Shown one piece after another: positions 1,856 through 59,880 of a stretch of DNA of 64,000 nucleotides; the first letter of the stretch is position 1, and the number at the start of each line of letters is the position of its first letter. The DNA is taken from positions 1,632,001 to 1,696,000 of the forward strand of contig CP086569.2 in the NCBI GenBank assembly GCA_009914755.4. The letters are read 5' to 3'. This stretch comes from the human T2T-CHM13v2.0 reference genome, Homo sapiens. A model generated the notes under the pieces. It had not been told where the DNA came from. It saw only the letters and a list, made by a program, of their open reading frames with translations, and did not search any database. The position numbers and the translations under genes were made by a program.

Positions 1856-2327
<472 letters not shown>

Positions 2328-2380
2328 TGCAATCACCTTTTAAATAATCTATCAGTATCCAGATACTGCTTTTCTTTTCT

Positions 2381-2676
<296 letters not shown>

Positions 2677-2732
2677 TGCAATCACGTTTTAAATAGTCTA
2701 TCAGTACCCAGATACTGCTTTTCTTTTCTTTT

Positions 2733-3044
<312 letters not shown>

Positions 3045-12504: not shown

Positions 12505-13040
12505 TTTACATTTTAATTATGGCAAAATACATATAACATAACATTTACTACTAGTGACATTCAGAACATTCCCCATGCTGTATAGCCATTACCTCCATCT
12601 CCTTCCAGAACATTCAACATTCCCCATGCTGTATAGCCATTACCTCCATCTCCTTCCAGAACATTCTAATCACCCTAAATGGAGACCTTGTACCTATTAA
12701 GCCCTCACTCCTCCTTTTCCCAACCCATGCAAACCCCTAATCTACTTTCTATCTCTAGGGATTCATTCCTTCTAGACATTTCACATAAATGGAATAACCC
12801 AAGGTGTGGCTTATTTATATCTGGCTTCATTTACTGAACATAATGTTCTCAAAGTACACTCACATAGCAGCGTGTGTCAGGATTTCATTGTGTTTGATGG
12901 CTGTTTCATATTCCACCATATGGATAGACGCCATTTTGTTTCTCCATTCACCTATGGGTGAACATTTGGGTTGTATTTACCCGTTGGTGATTGGGAAGAA
13001 TGCTGCTATGAATAATTGGATACGTATTTTTGTTTGAACA
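12505..13040 (-). mobile_element. L1M-type 3' end (antisense), containing a ~50-bp tandem duplication at 12562-12656
   Basis: TTTTAATTATGGCAAAATACATATAACATAACATTTAC..., GAATAA(C/T)..CATTGTATGGATA..CATTTTGTTTCTCCATTCA..GGGTGAACATTTGGGTTGT and GAATGCTGCTATGAA all match L1M antisense. CAGAACATTC(AA)CATTCCCCATGCTGTATAGCCATTACCTCCATCTCCTTC occurs twice. Confidence 0.65.
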
Positions 13041-15085: not shown

Positions 15086-15912
15086 TACTGATTCACTGCA
15101 GAAGGCGGGCAATTTGCTGAGCACCTAGAAGGGCCTGACTATCAGTGCCAGGGTTAGTGGGTCCAACCTCAAGGTCCTGCACCTAGAGGACCTAACACAG
15201 ACAATGTTCTGCTGGCTGCTGAACACTTGGACCTAACCCTGACCATCTTCTGCACATTGCCCAGGACTAGTTGGCCCCACTTCTTCTCTTCTCAGAGCCC
15301 ACGATAGGCCCTGTGGTCACTCCCTCTGCAGAGGTGGAACTGAAATTCCCTCAGGTCACATTCCTGGTTATGCAGGAAGCTGAGAATGAGACAGGAATTC
15401 CAAACCCAGGTCAGTGGCCTAAATATGGTCCTGTGGGTCTGACCACAGGCAGTTACAAGGCTGGAACCCAGGGGAAAGCTGCCTTCCCACATCGCGCTGG
15501 GTGCACACCTGGAGCATTACACAGCTTGGGGGGATGAAGGGTAAGACCTCAGGCCCCTGGGCAGCCATGCTCTTATGAGTATGTATATCCTGGAGCAGGT
15601 CCTGCCACTTCAGGCCTCCTTACTAGTGGTGGAAGAGGCAGGTGCCTGAGCCCCTCTTCCCCATTCTGACTTGTACCTTTTGACTCCTAGCCCTTTCCAC
15701 TCTCCCTCCCCAGACCTCCTAGTTCAGGACATGCCTGAACACCTCCGGTAACCTTCCCATGTGTAGTTTCCAGTATACCAAGAGGAGCTTGTGCGGTGGT
15801 TGAGCTTTAAGCAGCAGAAAGTTTCTCAGCAATTTGCCTCGTATATATTGGTATTGGTGTGCTCCAGGGAGACAGAACCAATTGTATCATTTCACGATAA
15901 GAAGAGGTTCTA

Positions 15913-16233
<321 letters not shown>

Positions 16234-16243
16234 AAGGTTCTAA

Positions 16244-16925
<682 letters not shown>

Positions 16926-17349
16926 ATACGTCCAAAGACAGCATCTGAAGGACTTCAGGCTAAACCTACCTGGTGGAAGAAACTATTCTCTTAACTCTCA
17001 TTTCCAAATGAGAAGTATATTTAAGATGGGTGTACTTCCCTCACGGTGAAATGGTTTTCAACTTCTCAGGGAGAGAAGTCTTATTTCCTCTTTGCCTTTC
17101 TCCCCCCATTTTCCCTTTCTTTCCTCTTCCACATAGAGCATTTTAGATGCGTCCAGGGGGCCATGGTCTGTCACTCACTCACTTCTCTTTAGCTTACAGA
17201 AAGACAACATGCTATGAAAAAGAAAGAAAAAATCTCTCTTCTCAGTTTCTGATGTTTGCTTATCTGTTATTCTTGTAGATGTATATTGCCAGATTAGTAT
17301 ATGTCAATGTGTTATGGAAATTTTAACAGATATAAAAAGTATAAACAAT

Positions 17350-17670
<321 letters not shown>

Positions 17671-17687
17671 CAGAATAGTGAGTTTCA

Positions 17688-17836
17688 GCCAGGTGTGGTG
17701 GCTCATGCCTATGATTCCAGCACTTTGGGAGGCCGGAGAATTACTTGAGCCCAGGAGGTCGAGGCTGCAGTGAGCCAAGATCACGTCAAGGCACTCCAGC
17801 CTGGGTGATGGAGCGACGTTCTGTCTCGAATTTTTA
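17688..17836 (+). mobile_element. Internally deleted Alu (left-monomer start fused to right-monomer end), preceded by a second copy of the first Alu's 5' flank
   Basis: The flank AATAGTGAGTTTCA is followed by GCCAGGTGTGGTGGCTCATGCCTATGATTCCAGCACTTTGGGAGGCCGGAGAATTACTTGAGCCCAGGAGGTCGAGGCTGCAGTGAGCCAAGATCACG.. Confidence 0.8.
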
Positions 17837-18226: not shown

Positions 18227-18568
18227 CCTCCCATTCACACTGGGGATACTGGGACCAGATCCAAAGCCAGCAGCATTGAAACAGCGGTTGAAGCAGCGTT
18301 CAAACAGTATTGAAACAGATTTGTGGACACCGCAGTCGTGCATGCATTCCTCATGAGGAAAGGCTGTCACTCTTTAAATTTCTCCCTGACTTGGGTGTCT
18401 GCAAATATCCATGAGTCTTATTCTCTACGTGGACACACAGATGTCCACTCGGATACCTCAGCCGTAGAAGAATCACCAAGCATCTATGACCCACATTGTT
18501 TATCTATTTATCTTGCCAGTCGTTTTGTGGGGAGGAAGGGGGCTTGCTTTGTTTAAAAAATTATTTGA

Positions 18569-19015
<447 letters not shown>

Positions 19016-19217
19016 TCAGGTACTTGGAGTGAAAATGAGAATTAAAGGCACAAGAAAACAGTTATTTTGCAACAGGAATATATTTGGCAGGGACCTCCAA
19101 ATCCCAGTTGTGGACCCATTGCTGGCTGCAAGTACAGGATCTCAAACATGGTTTATCTATGTTGCCTATATTTTTTGGAGAGGAAGCGGGCTTGCTTTGT
19201 TTAAAAAATTGTCTGAG

Positions 19218-19594
<377 letters not shown>

Positions 19595-20289
19595 TTATGA
19601 CTGGAAGGGAGGCTTCAGGTACTCGGAGGAAACATGGGGATTAAAAGCACAAGAAAACAGTCATTTTGCAACAGGAATATATCTGGCAGGGACCTCCAAA
19701 TCCCAATTGTGGACCCATTGCTGGCTGCAAGCACAGGCTCTCAAACCTGGTTGGGCAGTGGGGACCCTCTGGGCAGAATCACCTCCATCCCACCTGGGTT
19801 TCCACTTTAAACCCCCCAGTGGGGATTTTCCCATTCTGGAGACCTGGATGGGGTCCTCTGAGAACATCAGGCTCTTTTTCTGAGCCTTTGATCTCCAGCC
19901 TAGCCTGAATCAGGCTGGATGTCAGAGGTGCATCCTCCTTAGAATGAAGGAAGAAGGGACTTGGTAGTGTTCTATGTACACACGGCAGGGTGATGCTTTG
20001 GGGTGTTTGTAAACGAGGTTTCTCCCTCTCATTCAGTTGCTCATCTTCCCTTTCACCCACTGCCCTGCCAACTAATTTGAGTAGCCTGATGGTGCTTGCT
20101 TCATCTCGCCAGGGGAGGGATGGGTTAGACCAGAGAGATGGAGAAAAACCAGCCTCTCCCTCGCTTGACTTCAAGGTCTGTTTTCAAGAGGGAGGCGCGC
20201 GTGGGTTTGGGTTAGACCTAAAGTGGTTGATGCTTAGAGGGAGGGATTTCTTTGCTCTCAGACTAGGGGGCAGAGATGAGGTAGCGAGG

Positions 20290-21101
20290 ATGGAATATAG
20301 AGGTGATTGAAGGTATCTGGAAAGATATGCGTGGGCAATATGCAAATATTACACCATTTTATATAAGGGACATCCATGAATTTTACTAGCATCTGCTGAG
20401 TGTCCTGACATCAATCCTCCACAGATAACAAGGGATGACTGTATATAGATGACTTAGAGATACAGAAAGATATATAGAGAGATAGGGCGATACAGAGATG
20501 AAAGATTGATTGATGATAGATACCTGGATGGATAGATAGGAGATAGATAAATACATAGATACATAGATAGACGACAGATAGATACATAGATAGATAGATA
20601 CATACATAGATAGATGATAGAAAGATAGATGATAGATGGTAGATAGATAGATAATAGATAGATAAGTAAATAGATAGTAGACAGAAGATAGACAGTAGAC
20701 AAGTAGCTGGTAGGTACATAGTAGAAAAGTGGTAGATAGATAGATAGAAGACAAGTCGCTGGTAGGTAAGTAGACAGACAGTAGACAGGTAGCTGTGTAG
20801 ACAGATGATAGATAGATAGATAAGATAGATAGAAACATAGATGATAGGAGACAGGTACATAGATATCTGGATGAATAGATAGGAGATAGATGACAGATAG
20901 ATAGATAGATGATAGATGGTAGATAGATAGATAATAGATAAGTAAATAGGTAGATAGTAAACAGAGATAGAAGATAGATAGTAGACAAGTAGCTGGTAGG
21001 TAGATAGGTAGATAGAAAAGTAACTGGTAGATAGATAGAAGACAAGTAGCTGGTAGGTAGGTAGATAGAAAGACAGTAGACAGGTAGCTGTGTAGACAGA
21101 T

Positions 21102-21147
<46 letters not shown>

Positions 21148-21260
21148 CAAAGATAGATAGTAGATAGATAGTAGATAGAAAGATAGATAGATGGATAGTA
21201 GATAGATAGATAGAGATAGATGATAGATAGGAGACAGGTACATAGATTGATGTCGTGTTG
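20290..21260. repeat. Left arm of a large inverted repeat: ~160 bp unique flank plus ~800 bp (GATA)n/(GATG)n tetranucleotide array
   Basis: Flank ..GAAGGTATCTGGAAAGATATGCGTGGGCAATATGCAAATATTACACCATTTT..CATCCATGAATTTTACTA..CACAGATAACAAGGGATGACTGTATATAGATGACTTAGAGATACAGAAA, then gatagatagatag.. The ORFs 20386-21490 (300-360 aa, S/I/Y/L-rich) are artefacts. Confidence 0.85.
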
Positions 21261-21934: not shown

Positions 21935-22610
21935 AGTCTATCTACTTATCTATTTATCTATGTATCTATCTATCTACTATCTATGTATCTATCTATCTAC
22001 TATCTATCTATATCTATGTATCTATTATCTATCTATATCTATGTATCTATGTATTATCTATCTATATCTATCTATGTATCTATCTCTATCTACCTATCTA
22101 TCATCTATGTATCTATTTATCTATCTAGCTATCTATGTGTGTATCTAGTATCTATCTATCTAGCTATGTATCTATGTATTATGTATCTATCTTCTATCTA
22201 TATCTATCTATCTATGTATCTATCTATCTCTATCTATCATCTATGTATCTCTCTATCTAGCTATCTATGTATCTAGTATCTATCTATCTGGCTATCTATG
22301 TATGTATCTATGTATTATCTATCTTCTATCTATCCATCCATATATCTATCATCAGTCAATCAATCCTTTCATCGCTGTATCGCTCTATCCAGGTATCTTA
22401 TCTATTTATTTTTCTCTTTCTATATTTCTGTATCTCTAACTCATCTATATACAGTCATCCCTTGTTATCTGTGAGGGATTGGTTCCAGGACACACGACAG
22501 ATAATAGTAAAATTCATGGATGTGGCTGATAGAAAATGGTGTAGTATTTGCATATTAGCTATGCACATCCTTCCAAATACCTTCAATTGCCTCTATATTA
22601 CTTATAATAC
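21935..22610. repeat. Right arm of the inverted repeat: (TATC)n array (~410 bp) plus inverted copy of the unique flank
   Basis: ctatctacttatctatttatctatgtatc... The reverse complement of 22440-22600 matches 20300-20455 (CACAGATAACAAGGGATGACTGTATATAGATGA, ATATGCAAATA(C/T)TACACCATTTT, TGAAGGTAT(C/T)TGGAA). Confidence 0.85.
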
Positions 22611-27654: not shown

Positions 27655-28673
27655 ATATTCTCTCTCTGTCTTTCATCTGTCACTATTGTTACTATTCTAT
27701 CTGTTCATCTATCTATTAATATCTACATATCTTCTATATATCATCTATTATCTAACATCTACCTATATCTATATATCATGTATTATCACGTATCTATCCA
27801 TTGTCTATTTCTGTCATTTATCATTCTGTGTATTGATCATCTTTTTTTCTATCATCTATGTAACTCATCTATCATCTGTCATGTCTATCATCTATCTATT
27901 TTTCTATCATCTGTGCATTGATCGATCTAGCATCTATTATCCCTCTCTATCATCTATTGATCTATCTACATATCTATCCGTCTACCTACTTAGCATCTAT
28001 CTGTCATCTATTGGTCTTTCTACATATCTACCTACCTACCTACCTACTCAGCATCTATGTATCTGTGTATCCATCTATCATCTATTGATCTTCCTACATA
28101 TCTACTTACCTACCTACTCAGCATCTATGTATCTATCTATCATCTATTGATCTCTCTACATATCTACCTACTAACCTACTCAGCGTCTATGTATCTATGT
28201 ATCTATCTATCATCTATTGATCTCTCTACATATCTACCTACCTACCTACTCAGCGTCTATGTATCTTTGTATCTAGCTATCATCTATTGATCTATCTACA
28301 CATCTATCTACCTACTTAGCATCTATCATCTATTGACCTATCTATATATCTATCTACCTACCTACTCAGCATCTATTATCTATCATCTATCTATCATCTA
28401 TCTAATCTATCTATTGTCTATTGATCTATCTACACATCTATCTACCTACCTAGTTAGCATCTATCATCTGTTATCTATCTACATATGTGTCTACCTATCT
28501 ACTTAGCATCTATCTATCATCTATTGATCTATCTATATATCTATCTATCTACCTACTTAGCATCTATCTCTGTATCATCTATTGATCTATCTACATATCT
28601 ACCTACCTATCTACTTAGCATCTATCTATCACCTATTGGTCTATCTACATGTCTATATACCTACCTCCTTAGC

Positions 28674-28720
<47 letters not shown>

Positions 28721-28905
28721 ATCTATTGATCCATCTACTTGTCTATATACCTACCTCCTTAGCATCTATCTAATCTATCATCTGTCTATCTATCTATCTA
28801 TCCAGCTATCTCTCATCTATTTACCTAAGTATTCTCTCTCTCTCTCTCTCTCACTCTTGCTCTCTCCCCCTTGCTCTCTCCCTACTACCTATCTATTATA
28901 TATCT
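27655..28905. repeat. ATCT/TATC-derived degenerate array with ~60-70-bp higher-order units (contains pure (TATC)12 at ~28670 and (CT)n at ~28827)
   Basis: The unit ..CTCAGCATCTATGTATCTATCTATCATCTATTGATCT(C/T)TCTACATATCTACCTACCTACCTACT.. recurs at about 28049, 28118, 28179 and 28248. Confidence 0.85.
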
Positions 28906-29635: not shown

Positions 29636-29639
29636 GACT

Positions 29640-30545
29640 ATCATCTATCTATCATCTCTATTTATCTATCACCTCTATCTATCTATCGTCTATCCCTCAT
29701 CTCCATCTATCTATTATCTATCGACCTATCATCAATCTATCATCTATTATCTATCTATGTATCTATCTATCCTTTCCATCTATCATGTCTATTTATCTAA
29801 CCTGTCTATTATCTATGTATCTCTCACCTCCATCTATTATCTATCGATCTATCATCTATCATCTATGTATCTCTCATCTCCATCTATTATCTATTATCTA
29901 TTGATCTATCATCGATCATGTGTTATCTGCCTATCTATCATCTATTATCTGTCTCTCATCTCCATCTATTATCTATCGATTTATCATTTATCTATCATCT
30001 ATTATGTGTCTATCTATCCTTTCCATCTATCATCTCTATTTATCTATCCTATCTATGTACCTCTCATCTCCATCTATTATCTATCGATCTATCATCCGTC
30101 TATCATCTATGTATCTCTCATCTCCATCTATTATCTATCGATCTATCATCTATCTATGATCTATGTATCTCTTATCTCCATCTGTCTATTATCTATCTAT
30201 TGCCTATTGATCCATCATTATCTGCCTATCTATCATCTATTATGTATGTATCACTCATCTCCATCTATTTTCTATAGATCTATCATGTATCTATCATCTA
30301 TTATGTATCTATCTATTATCTATGTATCTCTTATCTCCATCTATTATCTATTTTCTATAGATCTATCATCTATCTATCATCTATTATGTACGTATCTCTC
30401 ATCTCCATCTATTATCTATAGATCTATCATGTATCTATCTTCTATTATCTATCTATCTATCTATCTATCCTTTCCATCTGTCTATCATCTATTATCTATC
30501 TATCTATCTATCTACCCTTTCCATCTATCCATCATCTATCATTTA
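29640..30545. repeat. ATCT-derived minisatellite with ~50-63-bp higher-order unit x~15
   Basis: CTCTCA(T/C)CTCCATCTATTATCTATCGATCTATCATCTATCATCTATGTAT is repeated. The ORFs 29588-30590 (277 aa etc.) are artefacts. Confidence 0.85.
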
Positions 30546-32907: not shown

Positions 32908-33913
<1,006 letters not shown>

Positions 33914-37963: not shown

Positions 37964-38259
<296 letters not shown>

Positions 38260-38897: not shown

Positions 38898-39346
38898 CAC
38901 ATTTTTCCCCTCTTACAATGACAGTATCATGTTGCATCAGGGGCCAACTCCGCTTCATTCTGACCAAATCTTTACGAATTGCATCTGCAAAGGCTCTATT
39001 TCCAAACGAGGTCACACTTGAGCTTCTGAGCAGACGTGAATTTGAGGGGTACATGTTTCAACCCCATTCACATCAACGTCTTTTTCTTCTTTAGCAATCA
39101 GTGAAGATAATAAGGTCATTTTTATTCTGAGAGGAAATGTGAGTTCGTCTCGTCTCAGAGGATTGCTCAGAGTCCAGTTGAGCATGGCTGGGGTGCTAGG
39201 CTGTGCCGTTCTTGCTCTAAGCCCGAGGGATAACTAATTTCCATTATTTTGTTCTTGCCGCCTCATAATTTGTCTACATGGGGGTGAGGAGAGTGAATGT
39301 CCTGTTACAGGAAGCTGTTGCGGGTGGACTATTTAAAGGGATTTCA

Positions 39347-40643
39347 GGCCAGGTGCGGCAGCTTATGCCTGTCATCCCACCACTTTGGGAGGCCGAGGAG
39401 GGTGGATCACAAGGTCAGGAGTTCGAGACCAGCCTGGCCGATATGGTGAAACTCCATCTCTACTAAAAATACAAAAATTAGCCGGGTGTGCTGTCGGGCG
39501 CCTGTAATCCCAGCTACTCAGGAGGCTGAGGCAGGAGAATCTCTTAGAACCCGGGAGGCGGAGGTTGCAGTGAGCCAGATTGGGCCACTGCACTCCAGCC
39601 TGGGTGACAAGAGGGAGACTCCATCTCAAAAAAAATCATAAAATAAAAAATTAATTAATTAAAAAGGCTAGGTGCAGTGGCTCATGCCTGTAATCCCAGC
39701 ACTTTGGGAGGCCGAGGTGGGCAGATCACCTGAGGTTGGGGGTTTGAGACCATCCTGGCCAACATGGTGAAACCCCATCTCTAGTAAAATACAAAAATTA
39801 GCTGGGTGTGGTGTCGGGTGCTTGTAATCTCAGCTACTCAGGAGGCTGAGGCAGAATCTTAGAATCCAGGAGGTGGAGGTTGCAGTGAGCCGAGATCAAG
39901 CCATTGCACTCCAGCCTGGGCGACAAGAGGGAGACTCTGTCTCAAAAAAATACATAATATAATAAAAATAAATAAATAATAAAATAGGCCAGGCACGGTG
40001 GTTCACGCCTGTAGTCCCAGCACTTTGGGAGGCCAAGGCGGGTGGATCACCTGATGTCAGGTGTTCGAGACCAGCCTGGCCAACATGGTGAAACCCCATC
40101 TCTACGAAAAATACAAAAATTAGGTGGGTGTGGTGTCGGGCGCCTGTACTCCCAGCTTCTCAGCAAGGTGAGGCAGGAGAATCTCTGAGAATCCGGGAGG
40201 TGGAGGTTGCAGTGAACTGAGATTGGGCCACTGCACTCCAGCCTGGGCGACAAGAGGGAGACTCTGTCTCAAAAAATATATATATATAAAATAAATAATT
40301 AATAAAATAGGTCAGGTGCACTAGCTCATGCCTGTCATCCCAGCACTTTGGGAGGCCAAGGCAGGTGGATCACCTGATGTCAGGACTTCGAGACCAGCCT
40401 GGCCAACATGGTGAAACCTCGTCTCTACTAAAAATACAAAAATTAGCCGGGTGTGGTGTCGGGCGCCTGTAATCCCAGCTTCTCAGGAGGCTGAGGCAGG
40501 AGAATCTCTTAGAACCCCGGAGGCAGAGGTTGCAGTGAGCTGAGATTGCACCACTACACTCCAGCCTGGGCGACAAGAGGGGGACTCCATCTAAAAAAAA
40601 AAATGATAAAAAATAAATAATATAAAAAGTAAAATAAATAAAA
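39347..40643 (+). mobile_element. Head-to-tail tandem array of 4 complete Alus (39347-39665, 39666-39985, 39986-40309, 40310-40643), with one TSD pair flanking the whole array
   Basis: All four copies share the private variants GTGGTGTCGGGCGCCTGTAAT, GAGAATCTCTTAGAA(C/T)CC(G/A)GGAGG and GACAAGAGGGAGACTC, and (AATA/AAAT)n tails. The outer flanks are AAAGGGATTTCA|GGCCAGG and ...AAATAAATAAAAGGATTTCAGAGG. Confidence 0.9.
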
Positions 40644-41079
40644 GGATTTCAGAGGCATCTAACCAAGTAAGGACCCGGCCAAGCATGTATGTTGAAGACA
40701 AGCTGAGAAGGCTTTATAGCAATTAACAAAAAAAAACAGCTGGTAACAACAGCCAGTCTGGGGGTGTAAAAATGGAACTACCATTGGTAACAGGACCTTC
40801 CGTTCCTTCTAATGACCTCTTTGAAGGTACGAGTGATTTACACTCCATCATAACCCTCTTGGCCCCTGGGGCCTCGTCTCAGCATCCGTTCCGTAGGCAG
40901 GAGGCACGGTTCTCGGTGTTTCCGGAGACCAACCCTGTTTTGTTTCTTTGGTAAAGCATAGAGCGTGGTGCTATTGACGTCGGGAGAATACCACGGCTTT
41001 GAAAACATTATTCTCAGTGAACGGAAGCCTGTCGCTGAAGACCACGTATCCTGTGATTTCATTCAGATGAAAGGTTCAG

Positions 41080-43392: not shown

Positions 43393-46300
43393 ACAACAGT
43401 AATAATATGATACTACCACTGCATGAGAGCAGTAATAACAACAACAGTAATACAATACCACCGCCGTGTGAGAGCAGTAATAACTACAACAGTAATACGA
43501 TACCACCGCTGCATGAGAGCAGTCATAATCACAACAGTAATATGATACTACCGCCGCATGAGAGCAACAACAGTAATATGATACTACTGCCGCATGAGAG
43601 CAGTAATAACAACAGTAATATGATACTACCACTACATGAGAGCAGTCATAATCACAACAGTAACATGACACCACCGCCGCATCAGAGCAGTAATAACAAC
43701 AACAGTAATATGATACTACCGCCGCATGAGAGCAGTAATAACAACACTAATATGATACTACCACTACATGAGAGCAGTCATAATCACAACAGTAACATGA
43801 CACCACCGCCGCATGAGCAGTAATAACAACAACAGTAATATGATACTACCGCCGCATGAGAGCAGTAATCACAACAGTAATATGATACTACCGCTGCATG
43901 AGAGCAGTAATAACAGTAATATGATACTACCGCCGCATGAGAGCAGTAATAACAGTAATATGATACTACCGCCGCATGAGAGCAGTAATAACAACAGTAA
44001 TATGATACTACCGCCGCATGAGAGCAGTCATAATCACAACAGTAATATGATACTACCGCCGCATGGGAGCAGTAATAACAACAACAGTAATATGATACTA
44101 CCGCCGCATGAGAGCAGTAATAACAACAGTAATATGATACTACCGCTGCATGAGAGCAGTAATAACAGTAATATGATACTACCGCCGCATGAGAGCAGTA
44201 ATAACAACAGTAATATGATACTACCACTACATGAGAGCAGTCATAATCACAACAGTAATATGATACTACCACTACATGAGAGCAGTCATAATCACAACAG
44301 TAATATGATACTACCACTACATGAGAGCAGTCATAATCACAACAGTAATATGATACTACCGCCGCATGGGAGCAGTAATCACAACAGTAATATGATACTA
44401 CCGTTGCATGAGAGCAGTAATAACAACAACAGTAATATGATACTACCGCCACATGAGAGCAGTAATCACAACAGTAATATGATACTACCGCCGCATGAGA
44501 GCAGTCATAATCACAACAGTAATATGATACTACCGCCACATGAGAGCAGTAATAACAACAGTAATATGATACTACCACTACATGAGAGCAGTCATAATCA
44601 CAACAGTAATATGATACTACCACTACATGAGAGCAGTCATAATCACAACAGTAATATGATACTACCACTACATGAGAGCAGTCATAATCACAACAGTAAT
44701 ATGATACTACCGCTGCATGAGAGCAGTAATAACAACAGTAATATGATACTACCGCCGCATGAGAGCAACAACAGTAATATGATACTACTGCCGCATGAGA
44801 GCAGTAATAACAACAGTAATATGATACTACCGCCGCATGAGAGCAGTAATAACAACAGTAATATGATACTACCACTACATGAGAGCAGTCATAATCACAA
44901 CAGTAATATGATACTACCGCCGCATGAGAGCAGTAATCACAACAGTAATATGATACTACCGCTGCATGAGAGCAGTAATAACAGTAATATGATACTACCG
45001 CCACATGAGAGCAGTAATAACAGTAATATGATACTACCGCCGCATGAGAGCAGTAATAACAACAGTAATATGATACTACCGCCGCATGAGAGCAGTCATA
45101 ATCACAACAGTAATATGATACTACCACTACATGAGAGCAGTCATAATCACAACAGTAATATGATACTACCGCTGCATGAGAGCAGTAATAACAACAGTAA
45201 TATGATACTACCGCCGCATGAGAGCAGTAATAACAGTAATATGATACTACCGCCGCATGAGAGCAGTCATAACAGTAATATGATACTACCGCCGCATGAG
45301 AGCAGTAATAACAACAGTAATATGATACTACCGCTGCATGAGAGCAGTAATAACAACAGTAATATGATACTACCACTACATGAGAGCAGTCATAATCACA
45401 ACAGTAATATGATACTACCGCCGCATGGGAGCAGTAATCACAACAGTAATATGATACTACCGTTGCATGAGAGCAGTAATAACAACAACAGTAATATGAT
45501 ACTACCGCCGCATGAGAGCAGTCATAATCACAACAGTAATATGATACTACCGCCGCATGAGAGCAGTCATAATCACAACAGTAATATGATACTACCGCCA
45601 CATGAGAGCAGTAATAACAACAGTAATATGATACTACCACTACATGAGAGCAGTCATAATCACAACAGTAATATGATACTACCACTACATGAGAGCAGTC
45701 ATAATCACAACAGTAATATGATACTACCACTACATGAGAGCAGTCATAATCACAACAGTAATATGATACTACCGCTGCATGAGAGCAGTAATAACAACAG
45801 TAATATGATACTACCGCCACATGAGAGCAGTAATAATCACAACAGTAATATGATACTACCGCCGCATGAGAGCAGTAATCACAACAGTAATATGATACTA
45901 CCGCCACATGAGAGCAGTAATAACAGTAATATGATACTACCGCCACATGAGAGCAGTAATCACAACAGTAATATGATACTACCACTACATGAGAGCAGTC
46001 ATAATCACAACAGTAATATGATACTACCGCTGCATGAGAGCAGTAATAACAACAGTAATATGATACTACCGCCACATGAGAGCAGTAATAATCACAACAG
46101 TAATATGATACTACCACTACATGAGAGCAGTCATAATCACAACAGTAATATGATACTACCGCCACATGAGAGCAGTAATAACAACAGTAATATGATACTA
46201 CCGCCGCATGAGAGCAGTAATAACAGTAATATGATACTACCGCCACATGAGAGCAGTAATAACAGTAATATGATACTACCGCCACATGAGAGCAGTAATC

Positions 46301-47310
46301 ACAACAGTAATATGATACTACCACTACATGAGAGCAGTCATAATCACAACAGTAATATGATACTACCGCCGCATGAGCAGTAATAACAGTAATATGATAC
46401 TACCGCCGCATGAGAGCAGTAATAACAACAGTAATATGATACTACCACTACATGAGAGCAGTAATAATCACAACAGTAACATGACACCACCGCCACATGA
46501 GAGCAGTAATAACAACAGCAATATACTACCGCCGCATGAGAGCAGTAATAACAACAGTAGTATGATACTACCACTACATGAGAGCAGTCATAATCACAAC
46601 AGTAATATGATACTACCGCCGCATGAGAGCAGTAATAACAGTAATATGATACTACCGCCGCATGAGAGCAGTAATAACAGTAATATGATACTACCGCCGC
46701 ATGAGAGCAGTAATAACAAGAGTAATATGATACCACCACCGCATGAGAGCAGTAATAACAACAGTAATATGATACCACCGCCACATGAGAGCAGTAATAA
46801 CAACAGTAATATGATACTACCACTACATGAGAGCAGTCATAATCACAACAGTAATATGATACTACCACTACATGAGAGCAGTCATAATCACAACAGTAAT
46901 ATGATACTACCGCCGCATGAGAGCAGTAATAACAGTAATATGATACTACCGCCACATGAGAGCAGTCATAATCACAACAGTAATATGATACTACCGCCGC
47001 ATGAGAGCAGTAATCACAACAGTAATATGATACTACCGCCACATGAGAGCAGTCATAATCACAACAGTAATATGATACTACCACTACATGAGAGCAGTCA
47101 TAATCACAACAGTAATATGATACTACCACTACATGAGAGCAGTAATAACAACAGTAATATGATACTACCGCCACATGAGAGCAGTCATAATCACAACAGT
47201 AATATGATACTACCGCTGCATGAGAGCAGTAATAACAAGAGTAATATGATACCACCGCCACATGAGAGCAGTAATAACAACAGTAATATGATACTACCAC
47301 CGCAGGAGAG
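43393..47310. repeat. Large minisatellite/VNTR of about 90-95 copies of a 39/42/45-bp unit with two unit subtypes
   Basis: Subtype P is AGCAGTAATAAC(AAC)0-2AGTAATATGATACTACCGCCGCATGAG (39, 42 or 45 bp). Subtype L is AGCAGTCATAATCACAACAGTAATATGATACTACCACTACATGAG (45 bp). The ORFs 43813..46383(+) of 856 aa and 43784..46324(-) of 846 aa are non-stop frames of the unit. Confidence 0.95.
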
Positions 47311-47345
47311 CAGTAGTAGGAGTAATAATAAAGTTAACAGCAGCA

Positions 47346-48074
<729 letters not shown>

Positions 48075-48254
48075 TTAAGAGGTGACAGGGCCATGAGACC
48101 TTTGCCCTCATGAATGGATTACTCCACACATAGATTAATGAATTAATGGGTTAATAGATTAAGTGTTTATCATGCAAATGTACTGACCTAAGCCAAGATG
48201 TGGATATTATGGGGTTTCACCCATGCTGCCATAGCAAAGTCTCACAGACTAGGT

Positions 48255-48735
48255 GGCTTAACCAACAGACATTGATTCTCCCACAGTCCTGGAGGCTGCA
48301 AGTCTGAGATCCAGGTGTGGGCAGGGCTGGTTCCTCCTGAGGCCTCTCTCCTTGGCTTGGAGACACTGTCTTCTCCCTGCAGCCTCACAGGGTCATCCCT
48401 CTGTGTGTGTCTGTGTCCTCACCTCCTCTTCTTATGAGATGCCTTAGTCCATTTCAGGCTGCTAACACAGAATACCATAGACTGGGTGACTTATAAACAA
48501 CAGACATTGATTCTCCCACAGTCCTGGAGGCTGGAAGTCTGAGATCCAGGTATGGGCAGGGCTGGTTCCTCCTGAGGCCTCTCTCCTGGGCTTGTAGACG
48601 CCGTCTTCTCCCTGTGCCCTCACAGGGTCATCCCTCTGTGTGTGTCTGTGTCCTCACCTCTTCTTCTTATGAGATGCCTTAGTCCATTTCAGGCTGCTAA
48701 CACAGAATACCATAGACTGGGTGACTTATGAGCAA
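48255..48735 (-). mobile_element. Two tandem ~240-bp copies of a MaLR-type LTR 3' part (antisense)
   Basis: CCATAGACTGGGTGACTTATAAACAACAGACATTGATTCTCCCACAGTCCTGGAGGCTGGAAGTCTGAGATCCAGGT..GGGCAGGGCTGGTTCCTCCTGAGGCCTCTCTCC...CTCACAGGGTCATCCCTCTGTGTGTGTCTGTGTCCTCACCTC appears twice. It is the reverse complement of the ..CCAGAACTGTGAG..AAGCCACCCAGTCTATGGTATT.. tail family. Confidence 0.6.
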
Positions 48736-49539
48736 CAGACATTGATTCTCCCACAGTCAAGACAGGGGAAGACCATGGAGAGGAGGGTCATGTATCTGTA
48801 ACTCTTGAACATTTTATTCCAGGATCAAGTAAACGTGCCAATATTTGGGTTAGCTTTCTGCTTTTTCTCCGGCAAAACACGACAATTTACACTGCATTGA
48901 ATTTAAGGATGGTTGCTTTCTCCTTGACATGCCAACAGAACAAACAGGGTCTCCGATTCTGAAATGACTCCAGATTTGGGAGACAAAGTTGTGTCAGCCA
49001 ATTTCTACAGATGCTGTCTGTAGACTCTGCTTGTGCCTGCATTTGGCTTTACAGATTCAGGCTGTGTTTCTGGAGCCGCCTCGCACGTTCTCCTCTATTG
49101 AGATTATAAAATTATCAAAAGCTTGAAGGTAAATGCTCTCTGTTGACTCAACACGATTACAACTTTGTGTGTGTGTGTTTGCTGCAGTGCAGCGCACAAG
49201 TTTTATAGGACAACCTGAGCCTTCATTTCTTCAGTTTGACATTCTGAGTTTAAGACAAAGGGAATGATCACCCCGCCGTGTTCTTGGTAAAGGAAGAGTG
49301 TTAGAGCATCATGGCAGTATTCTTCCAGCCTCCAGGAAGAGAAGCTTTTAAAATGACAATTTCTGATTTGACATTTTCACTTGTAACACCCTAGAGGTAT
49401 AGGCAGGTCTTGCATCTGCAAAAGGTTATTGCTGTGGAGAATTGGGAGCTGTGGTAAATGAAGTGTGACCGCCTTGCCCACAGTAAGGCAGGGAAGACAA
49501 GAGAATGTAAAAAATGTGAATACCTTGAGGAAGACAGTG

Positions 49540-50700: not shown

Positions 50701-53700
50701 CCTCCGCCAACAGGGAACAGATTTCAGCATGAGACCCAAACACCTCCACCCAGTCCCACCTCCATCACTGGGAACCAGATTTCAGCATGAGACCCAAACC
50801 CCTCACCCAGCCCCACCTCCATCACTGGGAACAAGATTTCAGCATGAGACCAAACACCCTCACACAGACTCACCTCCAACAATGGGGACCAGATTTCAGC
50901 ACGAGACCAAACACCCTCACCGAGCCCCACCTCCAACACTAGGGACCAGATTTCAACATGAGAAACAAACACCTCCATCCAGCCTCACCACTAATACGGG
51001 GGACCAGATTTCAGCATGAGACCCAAACACCCTCACCCAGCCCCACCTCCCACACTGGGAACAAGATTCCAGCATGAGACCAAACACCCTCACACAGACT
51101 CACCTCCAACAATGGGGACCAGATTTCAGCAATAGACCCAAACACCCTCACCCAGCCCCACCTCCAAACTGGGGACCAGATTTCAGCATGAGACCCAAAC
51201 ACACTCACGCAGCCCCAACTCCAACACTGGGGACCAGATTTCAGCATGAGACACACACACCTCCACCCGGCCTCACCCCCAACACTGGAGACCAGATTTC
51301 AGCATGAGACCCAAACACCCTCATCCAGACCCACCTCCAACAATGGGGACCAGATTACAGCATGAGACCCAAACACTTCCACCCAGCCCCACCGCCAACA
51401 CTGGGGACCAGATTTCAGCAGGAGACCCAAACACCCTCATCCAGACCCAACTCCAACATTGGTGACCAGATTTCAGCATCAGAACCAAACACCCTCACCC
51501 AGCCCCACCCCTAACACTGGGGACAAGATTTCAGCATGAGACCCAAACAACTCTATCCAGCCTCACCACCAACACTGGGGACCAGATTTCAGCATGACGC
51601 CTAAACACCCTCACACAGACCCACCTCCAACACTGGAGACAGATTTCAGCATGACATGCAAACATCTCGACCCAGCCCCACCTCCAACACTGGGAACCAG
51701 ATTTCAGAATGAGACCCAAACACTTCCACCCAGCCCCACCTCCAACATTGGGGAGCAGATTTCAGAATGAGACCCAAACACCTCCACCTGGCCTCACCTC
51801 CAACTTCAGGGACCAGATTTCAGCATAAGACACAAACACCTCCACCCAGACCCACATCAAACACTGGGAACAAGATATCAGCATGAGACCCAAACACGTC
51901 CACCCAGCCCCACCTCCAACAATGGGGACCAGATTTAAGCATGAGGCGAAAACACCCTCACCCAGACCCACCTCCAACACTGGGGACCAGATTTCCGCAT
52001 GGCACCCAAACACGCTCATCCAGACCCACCTCCAACATCGGTGAAAAGATTTCAGCATGAGACCCAAACACGCTCACCCAGCCCCACCCCTAACACTGGG
52101 AACAAGATATCAGCATGAGACCCAAACACCCTCACCCAGCCCCACCTCCAACAATGGGGACCAGATTTCAGCATGAGACCCAAACACCTCCACCTGGCCT
52201 CATCCCCAACACTGGGGACCAGATTTCAACATGAGACGCAAACACCTCCACCTGGCCTCACCTCCAACTTCAGGGACCAGATTACAGCATGAGACCCAAA
52301 CACCTCCACCCAGACCTACCTACAACACTGGGAAACAGATTTCTGCCTGAGACCCAGACACCTCCATCCAGCTTCACCACCAGCACTGGGGACCAGATTT
52401 CAGCATGAGACCCAAACACCCTCAGCCAGCCCCACCTCCAACACTGCGGACGAGATTTCAGCATGAGACCCAAACATCCTCACCCAGCCCCACCCCTAAC
52501 ACTTGGGACCAGATTTCAGCATGAGACCCAAACACCCTCACCCAGCACCCCCTCCAACACTGGGGATGAGATTTCAGCATGAGACCCAAACACCCTCACA
52601 GAGCCCCACCCCTAACGCTGGGGACCAGTTTTCAGCATGAGACCCAAACACCTCCATCCAGCCTCACCACCAACACTGGGGACCAGATTTCAGCATGAGG
52701 CCCAAATACCCTCACCCAGACCCACCTCCAACACTGGGGACGAGATTTCAGCATGAGGCCCAAACACCCTCACGCAGACCCACCTCCAAAACTGGGGACC
52801 AGATTTCAGCATGAGACCCAAACACCTCCACCCAGCCTCAACACCAATACTGGAGACCAGATTTCAACATGAGACCCAAACACCTCCACCCGGCCTCAAC
52901 ACCAATACTGGAGACCAGATTTCAACATGAGACCCAAACACCTCCACCCAGCCTCACATCCAATACTGGAGACCAGATTTCAGCATGAAGCCCAAACACC
53001 CTCACCCAGCCCCATCTCCAATAATGGGTACCGGATTTCATCATGAGACCCAAACGCTTCAACCCAGCCCCAACTGCAACACTGGGGAACAGATTTCAGC
53101 ATGAGACACAAACACCCTCCCCAAGACCCACCTCAAACACTGGGGACCAGATTTCAGCATGAGACCCAAACACCTTCACCCAGCACCACCCCTAACACTG
53201 GGGACCAGATTTCAGCATGAGACCCAAACACCTTCACCCAGCACCACCCCTAACACTGGGGGCCAGATTTCAGCATGAGACCCAAACACCCTCACCCAGC
53301 CCCACCTCCAACACTGGGGACAAGATTTCAGCATGAGACCCAAACACCCTCACCCAGCCCCACCCCTAACACTTGGGGACCAGATTTCAGCATGAGACCC
53401 AAACACCTCCATCCAGCCTCACCTCACCTGGGACCAGATTTCAGCATGAGACCCGAACACCTCCATCCAGCTTCACCACCAACACTGGGGACCAGATTTC
53501 AGCATGAGGCCCAAATACCCTCACCCAGACCCACCTCCAACACTGGGGACCGGATTTCAGCATGAGACCCAAACACCTCCATCCAGCCTCACCACCAACA
53601 CTGGGGACCAGATTTTAGCATGAGACCCAAACACCCTCACCCAGCCCCACCCCTAACACTTGGGACCAGATTTCAGCATGAGACCCGAACACCCTCACCC

Positions 53701-54335
53701 AGCACCCCCTCCAACATTGGTGACCAGATTTCAGCATGAGACCCAAACACCCGCACCCAGCCCCACCCCTAACACTGGGGACCAGAATTCAGCATGAGAC
53801 CCAAACACCTCCATCCAGACTCACCTCCAACTTTGGGGACCAGATTTCATCATGAGATCCAAACACCTCCATCCGACTGGCCTCACCTCCAACAGTTGGG
53901 GCCAGATTTCAGCATGAGACCCAAACACCTCCATCCGGCCGGCCTCACCTCCAACATTGGGGACCAGATTTCAGCGTGAGACCCAGACACCCTCACCCAG
54001 CACCCCCCCAACACTGGGGACCAGATTTCAGCATGAGAGCGAAACACCTCCATCCAGCCTCACCACCAATACTGGGGACCAGATTTCTGCATGAGACTCA
54101 AACACCTCCATGCAGCCGGCTTCACCTCCAACACTGGGGCGAGATTTCAGCATGATACCCAAACACTTCCACCTGGCCTCACCTCCAACACTGGGGCGAG
54201 ATTTCAGCATGATACCCAAACACTTCCACCTGGCCTCACCTGTAACAGTGGAGACCAGATTTCAGCATGATTCCCAAACACCTCCACCTGGCCTCACCTC
54301 CAACATCAGGGATCAGATTTCAGCATGAGATTTGG
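50690..54335. repeat. Satellite-like tandem array of a ~59-bp unit x~62 (3.6 kb), with the unit derived from the terminal ~60 nt of a MaLR LTR
   Basis: Unit CCAGATTTCAGCATGAGACCCAAACACC(C/T)TCACCCAGCCCCACCTCCAACACTGGGGA has a period of 59 bp (for example 50772->50831). Perfectly identical adjacent units occur at 53160-53280 and 54130-54230. The ORFs 50600-54328 are artefacts. Confidence 0.9.
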
Positions 54336-54689
54336 AGAAGACAAACATGCCGACTATATCAGCCACCGCGCCTGGCCACAGATATTTAGTCCTTAGCAAC
54401 TGGTGTCCTTATGAAAAGGGGGAAATGGGATGTGAATGGCGAGAAGCTATGGGAACTTTGCAGTGATGCTGCCCCAAGTCAAGGAAGTAACAGATGCCAG
54501 AAAAGGCAAGGAAGGATTCCTCCCTGGATCCCTCAGAGGAAACGCAGGTCTGCAGACACCTTAATCTCAGACGTCTGGACTCCAGAACTGGGTGAATCTA
54601 CACTTCTGTTATTTAAGCCACTCTGTTTTCTGTATTTTGTTAGATCTGCTCCAGCAAACTAACATTTTATTCCTGTACCTGAACATTGA

Positions 54690-55261
<572 letters not shown>

Positions 55262-55329
55262 TAACATTTTATTCCTGCACCTGAACATTGAAACTCAGCT
55301 ATGAATGAGTAGGTTCATACTGGACAGCA

Positions 55330-55626
<297 letters not shown>

Positions 55627-56214
55627 CTGCAATGGACTGTGTTTTTCTAACGTCATCCTCATAGACTCAAAGGCATCTCTCGGCCTTCAGTCCACCTGGG
55701 TGGCTCATCACAACTTTACAACCCTGCTGTCCCATCTGGGTAGAATTCCACCTGCGTTCATTCCACCAGCACGATTTTATGACCCTGCTGTCCAAAAGTA
55801 TATGTACGTTAGCTTGATTTAGCTGTTCCACAATGTGTATATATATATTGCAAAATAACATAGCGTGCCATGGTAAATAAATGCCATTTAAATCTGTCAA
55901 TTTCAAAACGATAAAACTTTAAATATAATAGGGCAAATTTACCAACTGCAATAAACAAGCAAAACCTGAGGATTGGTTCACTGTAAACTGTAATAGGGTT
56001 CTTGACAGGGTAAAGGAACAGGCTGGGAGCTTCAGAGCAAGCAAAGTTCTTCAGACACTTTAAACTTTGATGTCTGGACTCCAGAACTGAGAGGGTCTAC
56101 ACTTCTGTTATTTCAGCCATTCAGTTTGCTGCATTTTTGTTAGATCTGTCCCAGCAAACTAACATGCATTGATCAAAAGTATTCAGGTATTTCATTCCTG
56201 CACCTGAAAATTGA

Positions 56215-56575
<361 letters not shown>

Positions 56576-57107
56576 TGCAATGGACTACGTTTTTCTAACG
56601 TCATCCTCATAGACTCAAAGGCATCTCTCGGCCTTCAGTCCACCTGGGTGGCTCATCGCAATTTTACAACCCTGCTGTCCAAAAGCGTATGTACAATAGT
56701 TTCATTTAGCTTTTCCACAATGTGTGTAGATGTTACAAAAGCACATAGTGTGCATGATAAATAAATGCAATTTAAATGTACTAATGTTAAAAGTAAAAAT
56801 GTTTAAAATAATAGGGCAAATTTATCATTCCAATTTTAGTATACGTGCTGCCAAAGTGAGCATGGCAAAGTTATCAACTGCAACAAACAAACCAAATGCA
56901 AATTGTAATAGTGTCCTTGAGACAGGAAAAACGGACCCTTGGCCCTTCACTGGGAATGCAGTTCTGTGGACACCTTAATCTCAGACGTCTAGAGTGCCCT
57001 AGAACAGTGAGTCTAAATTTGTGTTGTTTAAGCCACTCTGTGGTATTTTGTTAGATTTGCCCTAGCAAACGAATATGCATGGAACAAAAACAAAGCTCAT
57101 CCCAGCA

Positions 57108-58819: not shown

Positions 58820-59185
58820 TTGGAATAAAGATTATTTACACGTGTAAACATTCAGAATTTTTATGTAATCTTTACTAATTAGATAAGTGAACTTACTTGG
58901 GTTCCACCACACAGTAGCAGAAAAGTAGCAGAAAAGGCTCGCTTAATTGGCTAGCCCATGGACTTGGGTCCCATTCAGATTTCCAGGTGGGAGTGGGTGT
59001 GTGGTGCCCGCCAGGTCTAGGGTGGGTGGAATAACACAGGACTGCTTTGAAAGGTCTTCAGAGAACCTATTGTTAGTTCATTCATACTTCCCAGCTCATA
59101 ATGATAAATTAATTTGCTTCAATGAGGCTGAAACGACGATATCCATGTTATCTGACGGGGTCACCATATTGAAAGTCATGCACGG

Positions 59186-59880
<695 letters not shown>

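What the first reader, a model, noticed from the sequence alone, without database searches (positions are those of the whole stretch)
39347..40643. Four complete Alus in perfect head-to-tail tandem sharing private mutations and a single outer TSD
The four copies are at 39347-39665, 39666-39985, 39986-40309 and 40310-40643. They share variants not in Alu consensus (GTGGTGTCGGGCGCCTGTAAT, GAGAATCTCTTAGAACCCGGGAGG, GACAAGAGGGAGACTC). All four also have AATAAATAA-type tails. The array is bracketed by ..AAAGGGATTTCA|GGCCAGG and ..AAAAGGATTTCAGAGG.

So one Alu insertion was amplified to 4 copies of ~320 bp by unequal exchange. Together with the x3 Alu+flank module at 2.0-3.05 kb, the x2 modules at 17.35-17.84 kb and 47.29-48.02 kb, and the x2 650-bp module at 18.5-19.9 kb, it shows that whole-Alu tandem amplification is recurrent in this window.
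Basis: seen in the sequence. Interest (0 to 1): 0.5.

Follow-up and report, generated by a model that had tools for sequence, protein, structure and literature searches.

The report
Old four-copy tandem Alu array
One Alu retrotransposon insertion was copied in place into four head-to-tail copies tens of millions of years ago, which is a real but ordinary example of a transposon-derived tandem repeat in a very repeat-rich stretch of primate DNA.

Summary
Positions 39347-40643 carry four complete dimeric AluS-type elements, all on the + strand. Each has its own A/T-rich tail, and no other sequence lies between them (TRF period 323 x 4.0). One 12-14 bp target-site duplication brackets the whole array (13/14 identical). 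All four copies share three rare markers: TGTCGGG, CT(T/G)AGAA with an extra A, and AGAGGGRGAC. None of the other 37 full-length Alus in the window has any of them.

Three refinements apply:
- The copies differ by 10-15%, almost as much as unrelated Alus, so the amplification is ancient (roughly 30-50 Myr) and happened soon after insertion.
- The history is close to star-like, with a few conflicting shared sites. It is neither cleanly nested nor recent.
- The 1->2 step cannot have been homologous exchange. Only a 3-bp AGG microhomology marks the unit ends.

The one at 17.35-17.84 kb is an independent insertion beside an older Alu. This is an ordinary member of a known class, so interest is low.

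The parts
39335..39346 (+). Left target-site duplication AAAGGGATTTCA. It is preceded by CTATTT, so the inferred L1 endonuclease nick site is TTT|AAA.
   Evidence: family D9 (13/14 match with 40639-40652); sequence read.
39347..39665 (+). Copy 1: Alu body 39347-39627 plus a 38-nt A/T-rich tail 39628-39665. It carries a private 2-bp deletion (CACAAGG instead of CACCTGAGG).
   Evidence: 89.1% to AluSx over consensus positions 1-282; two Metazoa_SRP hits.
39666..39986 (+). Copy 2: Alu body 39666-39943 plus tail 39944-39986. It is the most diverged copy (23 singleton changes, a 5-bp deletion in the right arm, only 4 CpGs left).
39987..40309 (+). Copy 3: Alu body 39987-40270 plus tail 40271-40309. 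Its tail end, AATAAAATA|GG, is nearly identical to the end of tail 2.
40310..40643 (+). Copy 4: Alu body 40310-40592 plus a 51-nt tail 40593-40643.
40640..40651 (+). Right target-site duplication AAAAGGATTTCA. Its first four A's cannot be told apart from the end of tail 4; the unambiguous part, GGATTTCA, is 40644-40651.
   Evidence: family D9.
39346..39348 (+). AGG at the left edge of the repeating unit. The same AGG recurs at every junction (39665, 39986, 40309) and at the right edge (40642-40644). It is a 3-bp microhomology at the duplication breakpoints.
   Evidence: family D6 (AGGCCAGG, AGGCTAGG, AGGCCAGG, AGGTCAGG) and (AGGATTTC after the last tail).

Best explanation
A single AluS-type element inserted by L1-mediated target-primed reverse transcription at the site ...CTATTT|AAAGGGATTTCA|GAGG..., which created the one TSD.

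Soon afterwards the segment 'Alu body + A-rich tail' was duplicated in tandem at the DNA level. The breakpoints share only AGG, so this first step was replication slippage, template switching or microhomology-mediated repair, not homologous exchange.

Once two identical 320-bp units lay side by side, unequal sister-chromatid or interhomologue exchange, possibly with gene conversion, quickly raised the number to four.

Mutation, especially CpG decay, then eroded the identity needed for further homologous exchange. The array froze and has since drifted as neutral DNA for an estimated 30-50 Myr.

What is shown: four copies, one TSD, shared rare markers, homologous tails, and old, near-equal divergence. 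What is inferred: the order and mechanism of the duplication steps, and the absolute age.
For: - One TSD surrounds the whole array (13/14, D9). The sequence at its left edge fits the L1 endonuclease TTTT|AA-type site; I read this and the consensus is from established knowledge.
- The internal junctions are tail|GG with no TSD copy and no foreign sequence.
- All four copies carry TGTCGGG, CT(T/G)AGAA(C/T)C with an extra A, and AGAGGG(A/G)GAC. None of 37 other full-length Alus in the window does. None of 20 contaminant Alus sampled from public bacterial assemblies has the G>T.
- Random Alu sets of four reach 4 or more shared non-CpG-transition states in 0.12% of draws.
- The tails share non-A interruptions at matching places: AAAT(C/G)ATAAAA in tails 1 and 4, and ...AAATAAATAAT.AAAATA in tails 2 and 3.
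- Near-star divergence: 9 states are shared by all four copies, and each copy has 11-23 singletons. Only 5 non-CpG states are shared by pairs, and they conflict (c1+c4, c3+c4, c2+c3). This fits a fast burst followed by long independent decay, with some exchange or conversion.
- The window is exceptionally prone to tandem duplication. TRF covers 32% of it. At least four other Alu+flank modules are duplicated in tandem with similar raw divergence.
- TE-derived tandem repeats that expand in situ are documented (PMC3389668).
Against: - Overall similarity is weak evidence. Within-array identity is 84-90%, against a background of 82.5 +/- 2.5% among unrelated Alus in the window, and copy 1 is 88% identical to an unrelated neighbouring Alu.
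- NJ bootstrap recovers the four-copy clade in only 23.5% of replicates.
- A-rich TSDs of separate insertions into tails could not be recognised against tail homology, so they cannot be strictly excluded.
- The near-star pattern fits a single-step origin equally well.
- No orthologous locus or second haplotype could be examined.
Confidence: 0.75

Rival explanations
1. Single-event concatemer. The four copies were laid down in one retrotransposition event. Either the L1 reverse transcriptase switched from the 5' end of the Alu RNA back onto an A-tail (of the same RNA or a sister RNA) three times, or one long read-through transcript of a pre-existing source array was copied. Either route gives one TSD and spacer-free head-to-tail copies from the start.
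For: There is one TSD and perfectly abutting complete units, each with its own tail. Divergence among copies is near star-like, with very few shared-by-subset changes. No TTTT Pol III terminator occurs on the + strand from 39347 to 40937, so an array like this could be read through.
Against: A jump onto the true 3' end of a Pol III Alu transcript should carry source-locus 3' flank and a U-run into the junctions, and none is present. Rare transversions are shared by subsets only: c1+c4 at alignment columns 14 and 27, c3+c4 at columns 69 and 173. Under this model they would need later conversion or parallel mutation. The window shows many DNA-level tandem duplications that include non-Alu flank, so a local DNA-level process is demonstrably active here. 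I know of no documented four-unit Alu concatemer from de novo insertion assays. The 226 recovered inserts in PMC3415434 showed recombination-type anomalies in 3.5%, and my term search of that paper turned up no concatemers.
Confidence: 0.1
2. Independent tandem insertions. Three further Alus from the same rare source lineage each inserted into the A-rich tail of the previous one. This is the common route to head-to-tail Alu pairs. Their own TSDs would be A-rich and invisible.
For: Tandem Alu inserts are common (El-Sawy and Deininger 2005, as cited in PMC3415434 and PMC3783187; a two-Alu tandem peak on chromosome 7 in PMC3592446). This window itself has two head-to-tail pairs formed by separate insertion (17347-17830 and 15899-16516). 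A-rich TSDs could hide in the tails.
Against: All four copies carry three rare markers that are absent from 37 other Alus in the window. The one marker tested further, the G>T, is also absent from 20 sampled contaminant Alus, giving 0 of 57 for that marker. That puts a 95% upper bound near 5% on the lineage frequency, so three further hits from the same lineage have probability below about 1e-4. Alu retrotransposition has no known local preference for its own source. The tails share interruptions, and two junctions are nearly identical.
Confidence: 0.05
3. Concerted evolution of unrelated neighbours. Four separately inserted Alus acquired the same variants afterwards by gene conversion among adjacent copies.
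For: Site patterns conflict in a position-dependent way, which suggests some conversion or exchange inside the array. Copy 1 shares a unique G>C, a 2-bp deletion and a C>T with the neighbouring Alu at 37965, so conversion may operate locally.
Against: There is a single outer TSD and no internal ones. The markers are spread from alignment column 151 to column 272, and they are interleaved with many sites where the copies still differ. Several very short conversion tracts would each have had to hit all four copies. The homologous tails are also unexplained.
Confidence: 0.04
4. Double insertion followed by exchange. Two Alus from the same source inserted head to tail, and unequal exchange between them then produced copies 3 and 4.
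For: Double insertion of TEs is a documented seed for tandem arrays in Drosophila (PMC5932611, title and abstract seen). It removes the need for a non-homologous first duplication.
Against: It still requires a second hit from the same rare lineage at the same spot (below about 5%). No second TSD is detectable.
Confidence: 0.05

Closest known systems
TE-derived tandem repeats and Alu-derived minisatellites or satellites (Jurka and Gentles 2006; Ahmed and Liang 2012, PMC3389668)
   Same: A transposon sequence is multiplied head to tail in situ after insertion. The model is initiation by slippage or short direct repeats, followed by expansion through unequal exchange. Most such arrays have 2-3 units, and AluS is a frequent source.
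   Different: Here the unit is the complete Alu plus its tail (about 320 bp), not a 20-150-bp internal fragment. The flanking direct repeat is only 3 bp, against the 5-20 bp described. The copies are about 85% alike, so the array would fail the >=95% filter used in that survey.
Tandem Alu insertions (El-Sawy and Deininger 2005, as summarised in PMC3783187 and PMC3415434)
   Same: Head-to-tail Alus with nothing but A-rich sequence between them.
   Different: Those are separate retrotransposition events, each with its own TSD and usually of different subfamily or age. Here there is one TSD, and rare markers are shared by all four copies. The window's pairs at 17347-17830 and 15899-16516 are of that kind; the array is not.
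TE dimers as seeds of satellite DNA (McGurk and Barbash 2018, PMC5932611)
   Same: Tandem TE copies provide the homology that lets unequal exchange expand an array.
   Different: That model starts from a double insertion and concerns young, polymorphic arrays in Drosophila. This array is small, old and apparently frozen.

Membership tests
Alu (dimeric 7SL-derived primate SINE), AluS-type | Two 7SL-derived monomers joined by an A-rich linker, with the right monomer carrying the extra ~31-bp segment | tested here: met
   Rfam gives two Metazoa_SRP matches per copy, eight in all, on the + strand, E = 2e-14 to 2e-6, all below the gathering score. Each copy aligns full length to Alu consensus positions 1-282.
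Alu (dimeric 7SL-derived primate SINE), AluS-type | AluS rather than AluY or AluJ diagnostic positions | tested here: met
   Identity is 88.4-90.7% to AluSx and 86.1-87.8% to AluY. Copy 1 has the 2-bp deletion typical of Sc/Y-type elements, but as a private change.
Alu (dimeric 7SL-derived primate SINE), AluS-type | A-rich 3' tail and flanking target-site duplication from L1-mediated insertion | tested here: met
   All four copies have tails. There is one TSD, 13/14 identical, around the array as a whole. Individual copies have no recognisable TSD.
In-situ TE-derived tandem repeat | Two or more head-to-tail units with a constant period | tested here: met
   TRF period 323, 4.0 copies; start-to-start spacings of 319-323.
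In-situ TE-derived tandem repeat | Units are each other's closest relatives rather than copies from elsewhere in the genome | tested here: inconclusive
   Three rare markers occur in 4 of 4 copies and 0 of 37 other Alus in the window. By overall identity the copies are mostly, but not always, each other's nearest neighbours, and the NJ clade has 23.5% bootstrap support. A genome-wide comparison is not possible with these tools.
In-situ TE-derived tandem repeat | Short direct repeats (5-20 bp) flanking the founding unit (Haber-Louis initiation) | tested here: not met
   Only AGG (3 bp) is common to the two unit boundaries. The 12-bp TSDs were not used, because no TSD copy lies between units. 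This lowers the case for that specific initiation route, not for in-situ duplication.
Independent tandem Alu insertions | Each element is bracketed by its own TSD | tested here: inconclusive
   No internal TSD is recognisable. An A-rich TSD would be masked by tail homology.
Independent tandem Alu insertions | Elements are unrelated draws from the active Alu pool (no private shared mutations expected) | tested here: not met
   All four copies share rare markers absent from 37 other Alus in the window; the G>T marker is also absent from 20 sampled contaminant Alus.
VNTR (copy number polymorphic in the population) | Different copy numbers among haplotypes | not testable with these tools
   No primate or human population assemblies are available. 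The metagenome and bacterial-genome scans returned no copy of this locus.

The most novel reading that the evidence does not exclude
The four copies were made in one step at insertion, as a reverse-transcriptase template-switching concatemer or as a retrotransposed read-through transcript of a source array. That would be a natural example of multimeric SINE integration under a single TSD. A weaker variant is that this window records a time-limited burst of local tandem duplication. Several Alu-containing modules have similar raw divergence, K2P 0.15-0.20, which would mark an ancient unstable, subtelomere-like domain.
Probability: 0.1. Interest if true: 0.45.

Novelty: new member of a known kind. 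Interest (0 to 1): 0.2.

Why it matters
The finding matters little on its own. It is a clean case for telling in-situ amplification of a SINE apart from serial insertion. The informative evidence is the single TSD plus rare shared markers, because overall identity is almost uninformative for old Alus.

It also illustrates how an array can expand quickly while its units are identical and then freeze as they diverge. In addition, it marks this window as a region where tandem duplication has been unusually frequent. If the locus still varies in copy number, or if a single-step origin were shown, it would be of more interest for SINE integration mechanisms.

Tried and rejected
- Distance phylogeny of all 41 full-length Alus in the window. 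NJ does not recover the four copies as a clade in the full tree, and bootstrap support is 23.5%. I kept this as an honest weakness, not as support.
- A search for a resolved nested duplication history. Pair-shared sites conflict (c1+c4, c3+c4, c2+c3), and only about 5 non-CpG sites are informative, against 1-2 expected by chance on a rough estimate. No stepwise order can be claimed.
- Scan of bacterial and archaeal assemblies for GGTGKCGGGCGCCTGTA, to sample contaminant human Alus and estimate the marker frequency.
- Scan of metagenome contigs for GAGAATCTCTKAGAAYCC. None of the 63 hits is an Alu. This is uninformative about a subfamily or other haplotypes.
- ORF list and bacterial promoter/terminator scan of the region. 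Only Alu-frame ORFs appeared, and nothing relevant.
- Exchange between the two TSDs as the first duplication step. Rejected because no TSD copy lies between the units.
- Assembly artefact. Rejected because the copies differ at 10-15% of sites, so they are unambiguously distinct.
- El-Sawy and Deininger 2005 could not be read. Its content is cited only through PMC3783187 and PMC3415434.

Full report
WHAT IS THERE

The window looks like primate DNA with very dense Alu content.

At 39346-40621 TRF reports a period-323 array with 4.0 copies, 84% matches and score 1793. Reading the sequence and aligning it to Alu consensus sequences shows four complete dimeric Alus on the + strand:
- Bodies at 39347-39627, 39666-39943, 39987-40270 and 40310-40592.
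- Each body is followed by an A/T-rich tail of 38, 43, 39 or 51 nt that abuts the next copy directly.

Rfam gives an independent, database-based confirmation: eight sub-threshold matches to Metazoa_SRP (7SL RNA), two per copy, all on the + strand.

THE BRACKET

TAAAGGGATTTCAG (39334-39347) and TAAAAGGATTTCAG (40639-40652) match at 13 of 14 positions, exactly at the two ends of the array (family D9). At most 0.44% of random position pairs at this spacing do as well, even in this repeat-laden window, and that tail probably comes mostly from the VNTRs, which I did not check.

The left edge reads CTATTT|AAAGGG. This is a good L1 endonuclease site (established knowledge of the TTTT|AA preference).

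None of the three internal junctions holds a copy of GGATTTCA or any other non-tail sequence.

SHARED VARIANTS

Relative to AluSx, nine derived states are shared by all four copies. They divide as follows:
- Four are CpG transitions and say little.
- The C>G that gives GGCGGGCGCC is present in 22 of 37 other full-length Alus in the window, and the extra A in GACAAGAG is present in 9 of 37. These two are not private.
- Three markers are rare: G>T in TGTCGGG, G>T plus an inserted A in AATCTCTTAGAA, and C>G in AGAGGGAGAC. As motifs they occur in all four copies and in no other Alu of the window.

Random sets of four other Alus share four or more non-CpG-transition states in 0.12% of 20,000 draws.

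The tails are also homologous. Tails 1 and 4 share AAAT(C/G)ATAAAA. Tails 2 and 3 share ...AAATAAATAAT.AAAATA and end in nearly the same junction, AATAAAATA|GG.

HOW STRONG IS THE CASE?

Overall similarity is weak evidence and should not be oversold:
- Body identity between copies is 85-90%. The within-array mean is 86.8%, against 82.5 +/- 2.5% for unrelated Alu pairs in the window. Copy 1 is 88% identical to an unrelated Alu at 37965.
- An NJ tree of 41 Alus does not recover the four copies as a clade. Bootstrap support is 23.5% for all four and 43% for copies 1+3+4.

The argument therefore rests on architecture (one TSD, no spacers, homologous tails) and on the rare markers.

Serial insertion from one lineage would need three further hits by a lineage whose G>T marker was seen in 0 of 57 sampled Alus: 37 in the window and 20 contaminant Alus in bacterial assemblies. 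That gives a probability below about 1e-4.

AGE AND HISTORY

At non-CpG sites, the K2P distance between copies is 0.077-0.111 (mean 0.095). The distance from each copy to the AluS consensus is 0.049-0.067. The common ancestor of the four copies therefore sits close to the consensus, which means the amplification followed the insertion quickly.

Half the pairwise distance is about 0.048 per lineage. At about 1-1.5e-9 substitutions per site per year this gives roughly 30-50 Myr. This is an inference with wide error.

Each copy has 11-23 singleton changes. Only five non-CpG states are shared by pairs, and they conflict:
- c1+c4 at alignment columns 14 and 27.
- c3+c4 at columns 69 and 173.
- c2+c3 at column 207.

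In the separate 41-Alu alignment (different column numbering), the state corresponding to column 14 and the state corresponding to column 69 are each seen in no other Alu of the window.

The history is thus neither a clean nested series nor a perfect star. It looks like a fast burst with some exchange or conversion between units.

MECHANISM

The first duplication cannot have used homology. Exchange between the two TSDs would leave a TSD copy between the units, and there is none. The two unit boundaries share only AGG (family D6). This points to slippage, template switching or microhomology-mediated repair (inference).

After that, two identical 320-bp units are a good substrate for unequal exchange, which can take the array to three and then four copies. 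Divergence then removes the substrate and freezes the array. This explains the near-star pattern without a special event.

A single-step origin is not excluded. Possible routes are reverse-transcriptase template switching, or a read-through transcript of a source array; no TTTT occurs on the + strand between 39347 and 40937. It is disfavoured because there is no source flank or U-run at the junctions, because rare transversions are shared by subsets only, and because the window shows an active DNA-level duplication process.

TRF covers 20.5 kb of the 64 kb window, or 32%.

Self-alignment confirms tandem duplications that include non-Alu flank (with homologous 5' flanks):
- 2011-3043: three units, offset 363, 78-81% identity.
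- 18493-19752: two units, offset 653, 81%.
- 47272-48036: two units, offset 379, 83%.
- 54495-56680: three units of about 600 bp, 80%.

Their raw divergence (K2P 0.15-0.27) is similar to that of the array (0.145-0.197 with tails included).

The module at 17.35-17.84 kb is different. It reads AATAGTGAATTTCA - Alu (Sc/Y-like right arm) - tail - AATAGTGAGTTTCA - Alu (J-like right arm, internally deleted) - GGGTGAGTTT.... The two Alus belong to different subfamilies. This is a second insertion at the head of an older Alu that reused the target site, a situation described by El-Sawy and Deininger 2005 as summarised in PMC3783187. The pair at 15899-16516 has the same layout.

'Recurrent whole-Alu amplification' is therefore better stated as 'recurrent local tandem duplication that often includes Alus'.

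COMPARISON WITH WHAT IS KNOWN

TE-derived tandem repeats, including Alu-derived ones, are well described. Ahmed and Liang 2012 found 7,276 in the human genome, mostly with 2-3 units, with in-situ expansion and initiation by slippage or short direct repeats in a minority (PMC3389668). They credit Jurka and Gentles 2006 with the model for Alu minisatellites.

Head-to-tail Alu pairs from separate insertions are common (PMC3415434; PMC3592446).

The present array belongs to the first class. It differs in three respects: a whole-element unit, four copies, and only 3-bp boundary homology. It is a new member of a known kind, not a new kind.

WHAT COULD NOT BE DONE

No primate genomes or population assemblies were available. 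The orthologue test and copy-number genotyping, which would settle age, stepwise versus single-step origin, and polymorphism, remain to be run. Two collection scans for the markers returned nothing useful.

VERDICT

Interest is low.

Noticed in passing
window 17347-17830: The layout is TSD - Alu - TSD - Alu - TSD-like (AATAGTGAATTTCA / AATAGTGAGTTTCA / GGGTGAGTTT). The first Alu is Sc/Y-like. The second is J-like with an internal deletion. This looks like a second insertion at the head of an older Alu that reused the same target site, not a duplication.
   Followed up: partly
window 15899-16545: Same head-insertion layout. AAGAAGAGGTTCTAAG lies before the Alu at 15916 and AAGAAAAGGTTCTAAG lies between its tail and the Alu at 16244. 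The two Alus share few derived states.
   Followed up: partly
window 32908-33829: An Alu whose left monomer is repeated about six times (period 133-135, 83% matches) before a single right monomer. The units fall into two alternating types, because TRF also finds periods of 255 and 390. It is younger than the main array (K2P 0.04-0.19).
   Followed up: partly
window 59185-59865: A second left-monomer array: four left-monomer units (period 133, 87% matches), the last of which belongs to a full Alu with a right monomer.
   Followed up: partly
window 54495-56680: A module of about 600 bp (Alu on the - strand plus about 320 bp of flank) is present three times at about 80% identity, with about 300 bp of extra sequence before the third copy.
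   Followed up: partly
window 37965-38245 and 39347-39450: Copy 1 of the array and the same-orientation Alu 1.1 kb upstream share a G>C seen in no other Alu of the window, the 2-bp CT deletion, and a C>T (columns 12, 64-65 and 97 of the 41-Alu alignment). This may reflect short-tract gene conversion between neighbours, or chance.
   Followed up: partly
window 43403-47315 and 47272-48036: A 45-bp minisatellite has about 92 copies, with an 87-bp two-unit higher-order period at 88% matches. An Alu inserted at its right end was then duplicated together with a piece of the minisatellite (379-bp unit, two copies).
   Followed up: partly
window 50713-54330: A 58-bp minisatellite with about 62 copies at 82% matches.
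   Followed up: no
window 20464-21230, 21937-22350, 27696-28820, 29638-30540: Four long degenerate (AGAT)n / (TCTA)n arrays of 100-290 units. They lie in opposite orientations on either side of about 21.5 kb.
   Followed up: no
window 48243-48758 and 12565-12666: The two youngest tandem duplications in the window: a 235-bp unit in 2.1 copies at 94-95% identity, and a perfect 51-bp unit in 2.0 copies at 100%. Duplication here was therefore not confined to one ancient period.
   Followed up: no
window 1-64000: TRF-detectable tandem repeats cover 32% of the window, and there are about 50 Alus. From general knowledge this is far above what is typical for a primate genome, and it suggests a subtelomere-like or otherwise exchange-prone domain. 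The locus and species were not identified.
   Followed up: no
window 39479-40595: Each copy gives sub-threshold Rfam matches to mir-1268 (+ strand, three of four copies) and mir-3135 (- strand, all four copies). From general knowledge I believe both families are Alu-derived. The matches reflect Alu sequence and are not evidence of miRNA genes.
   Followed up: no
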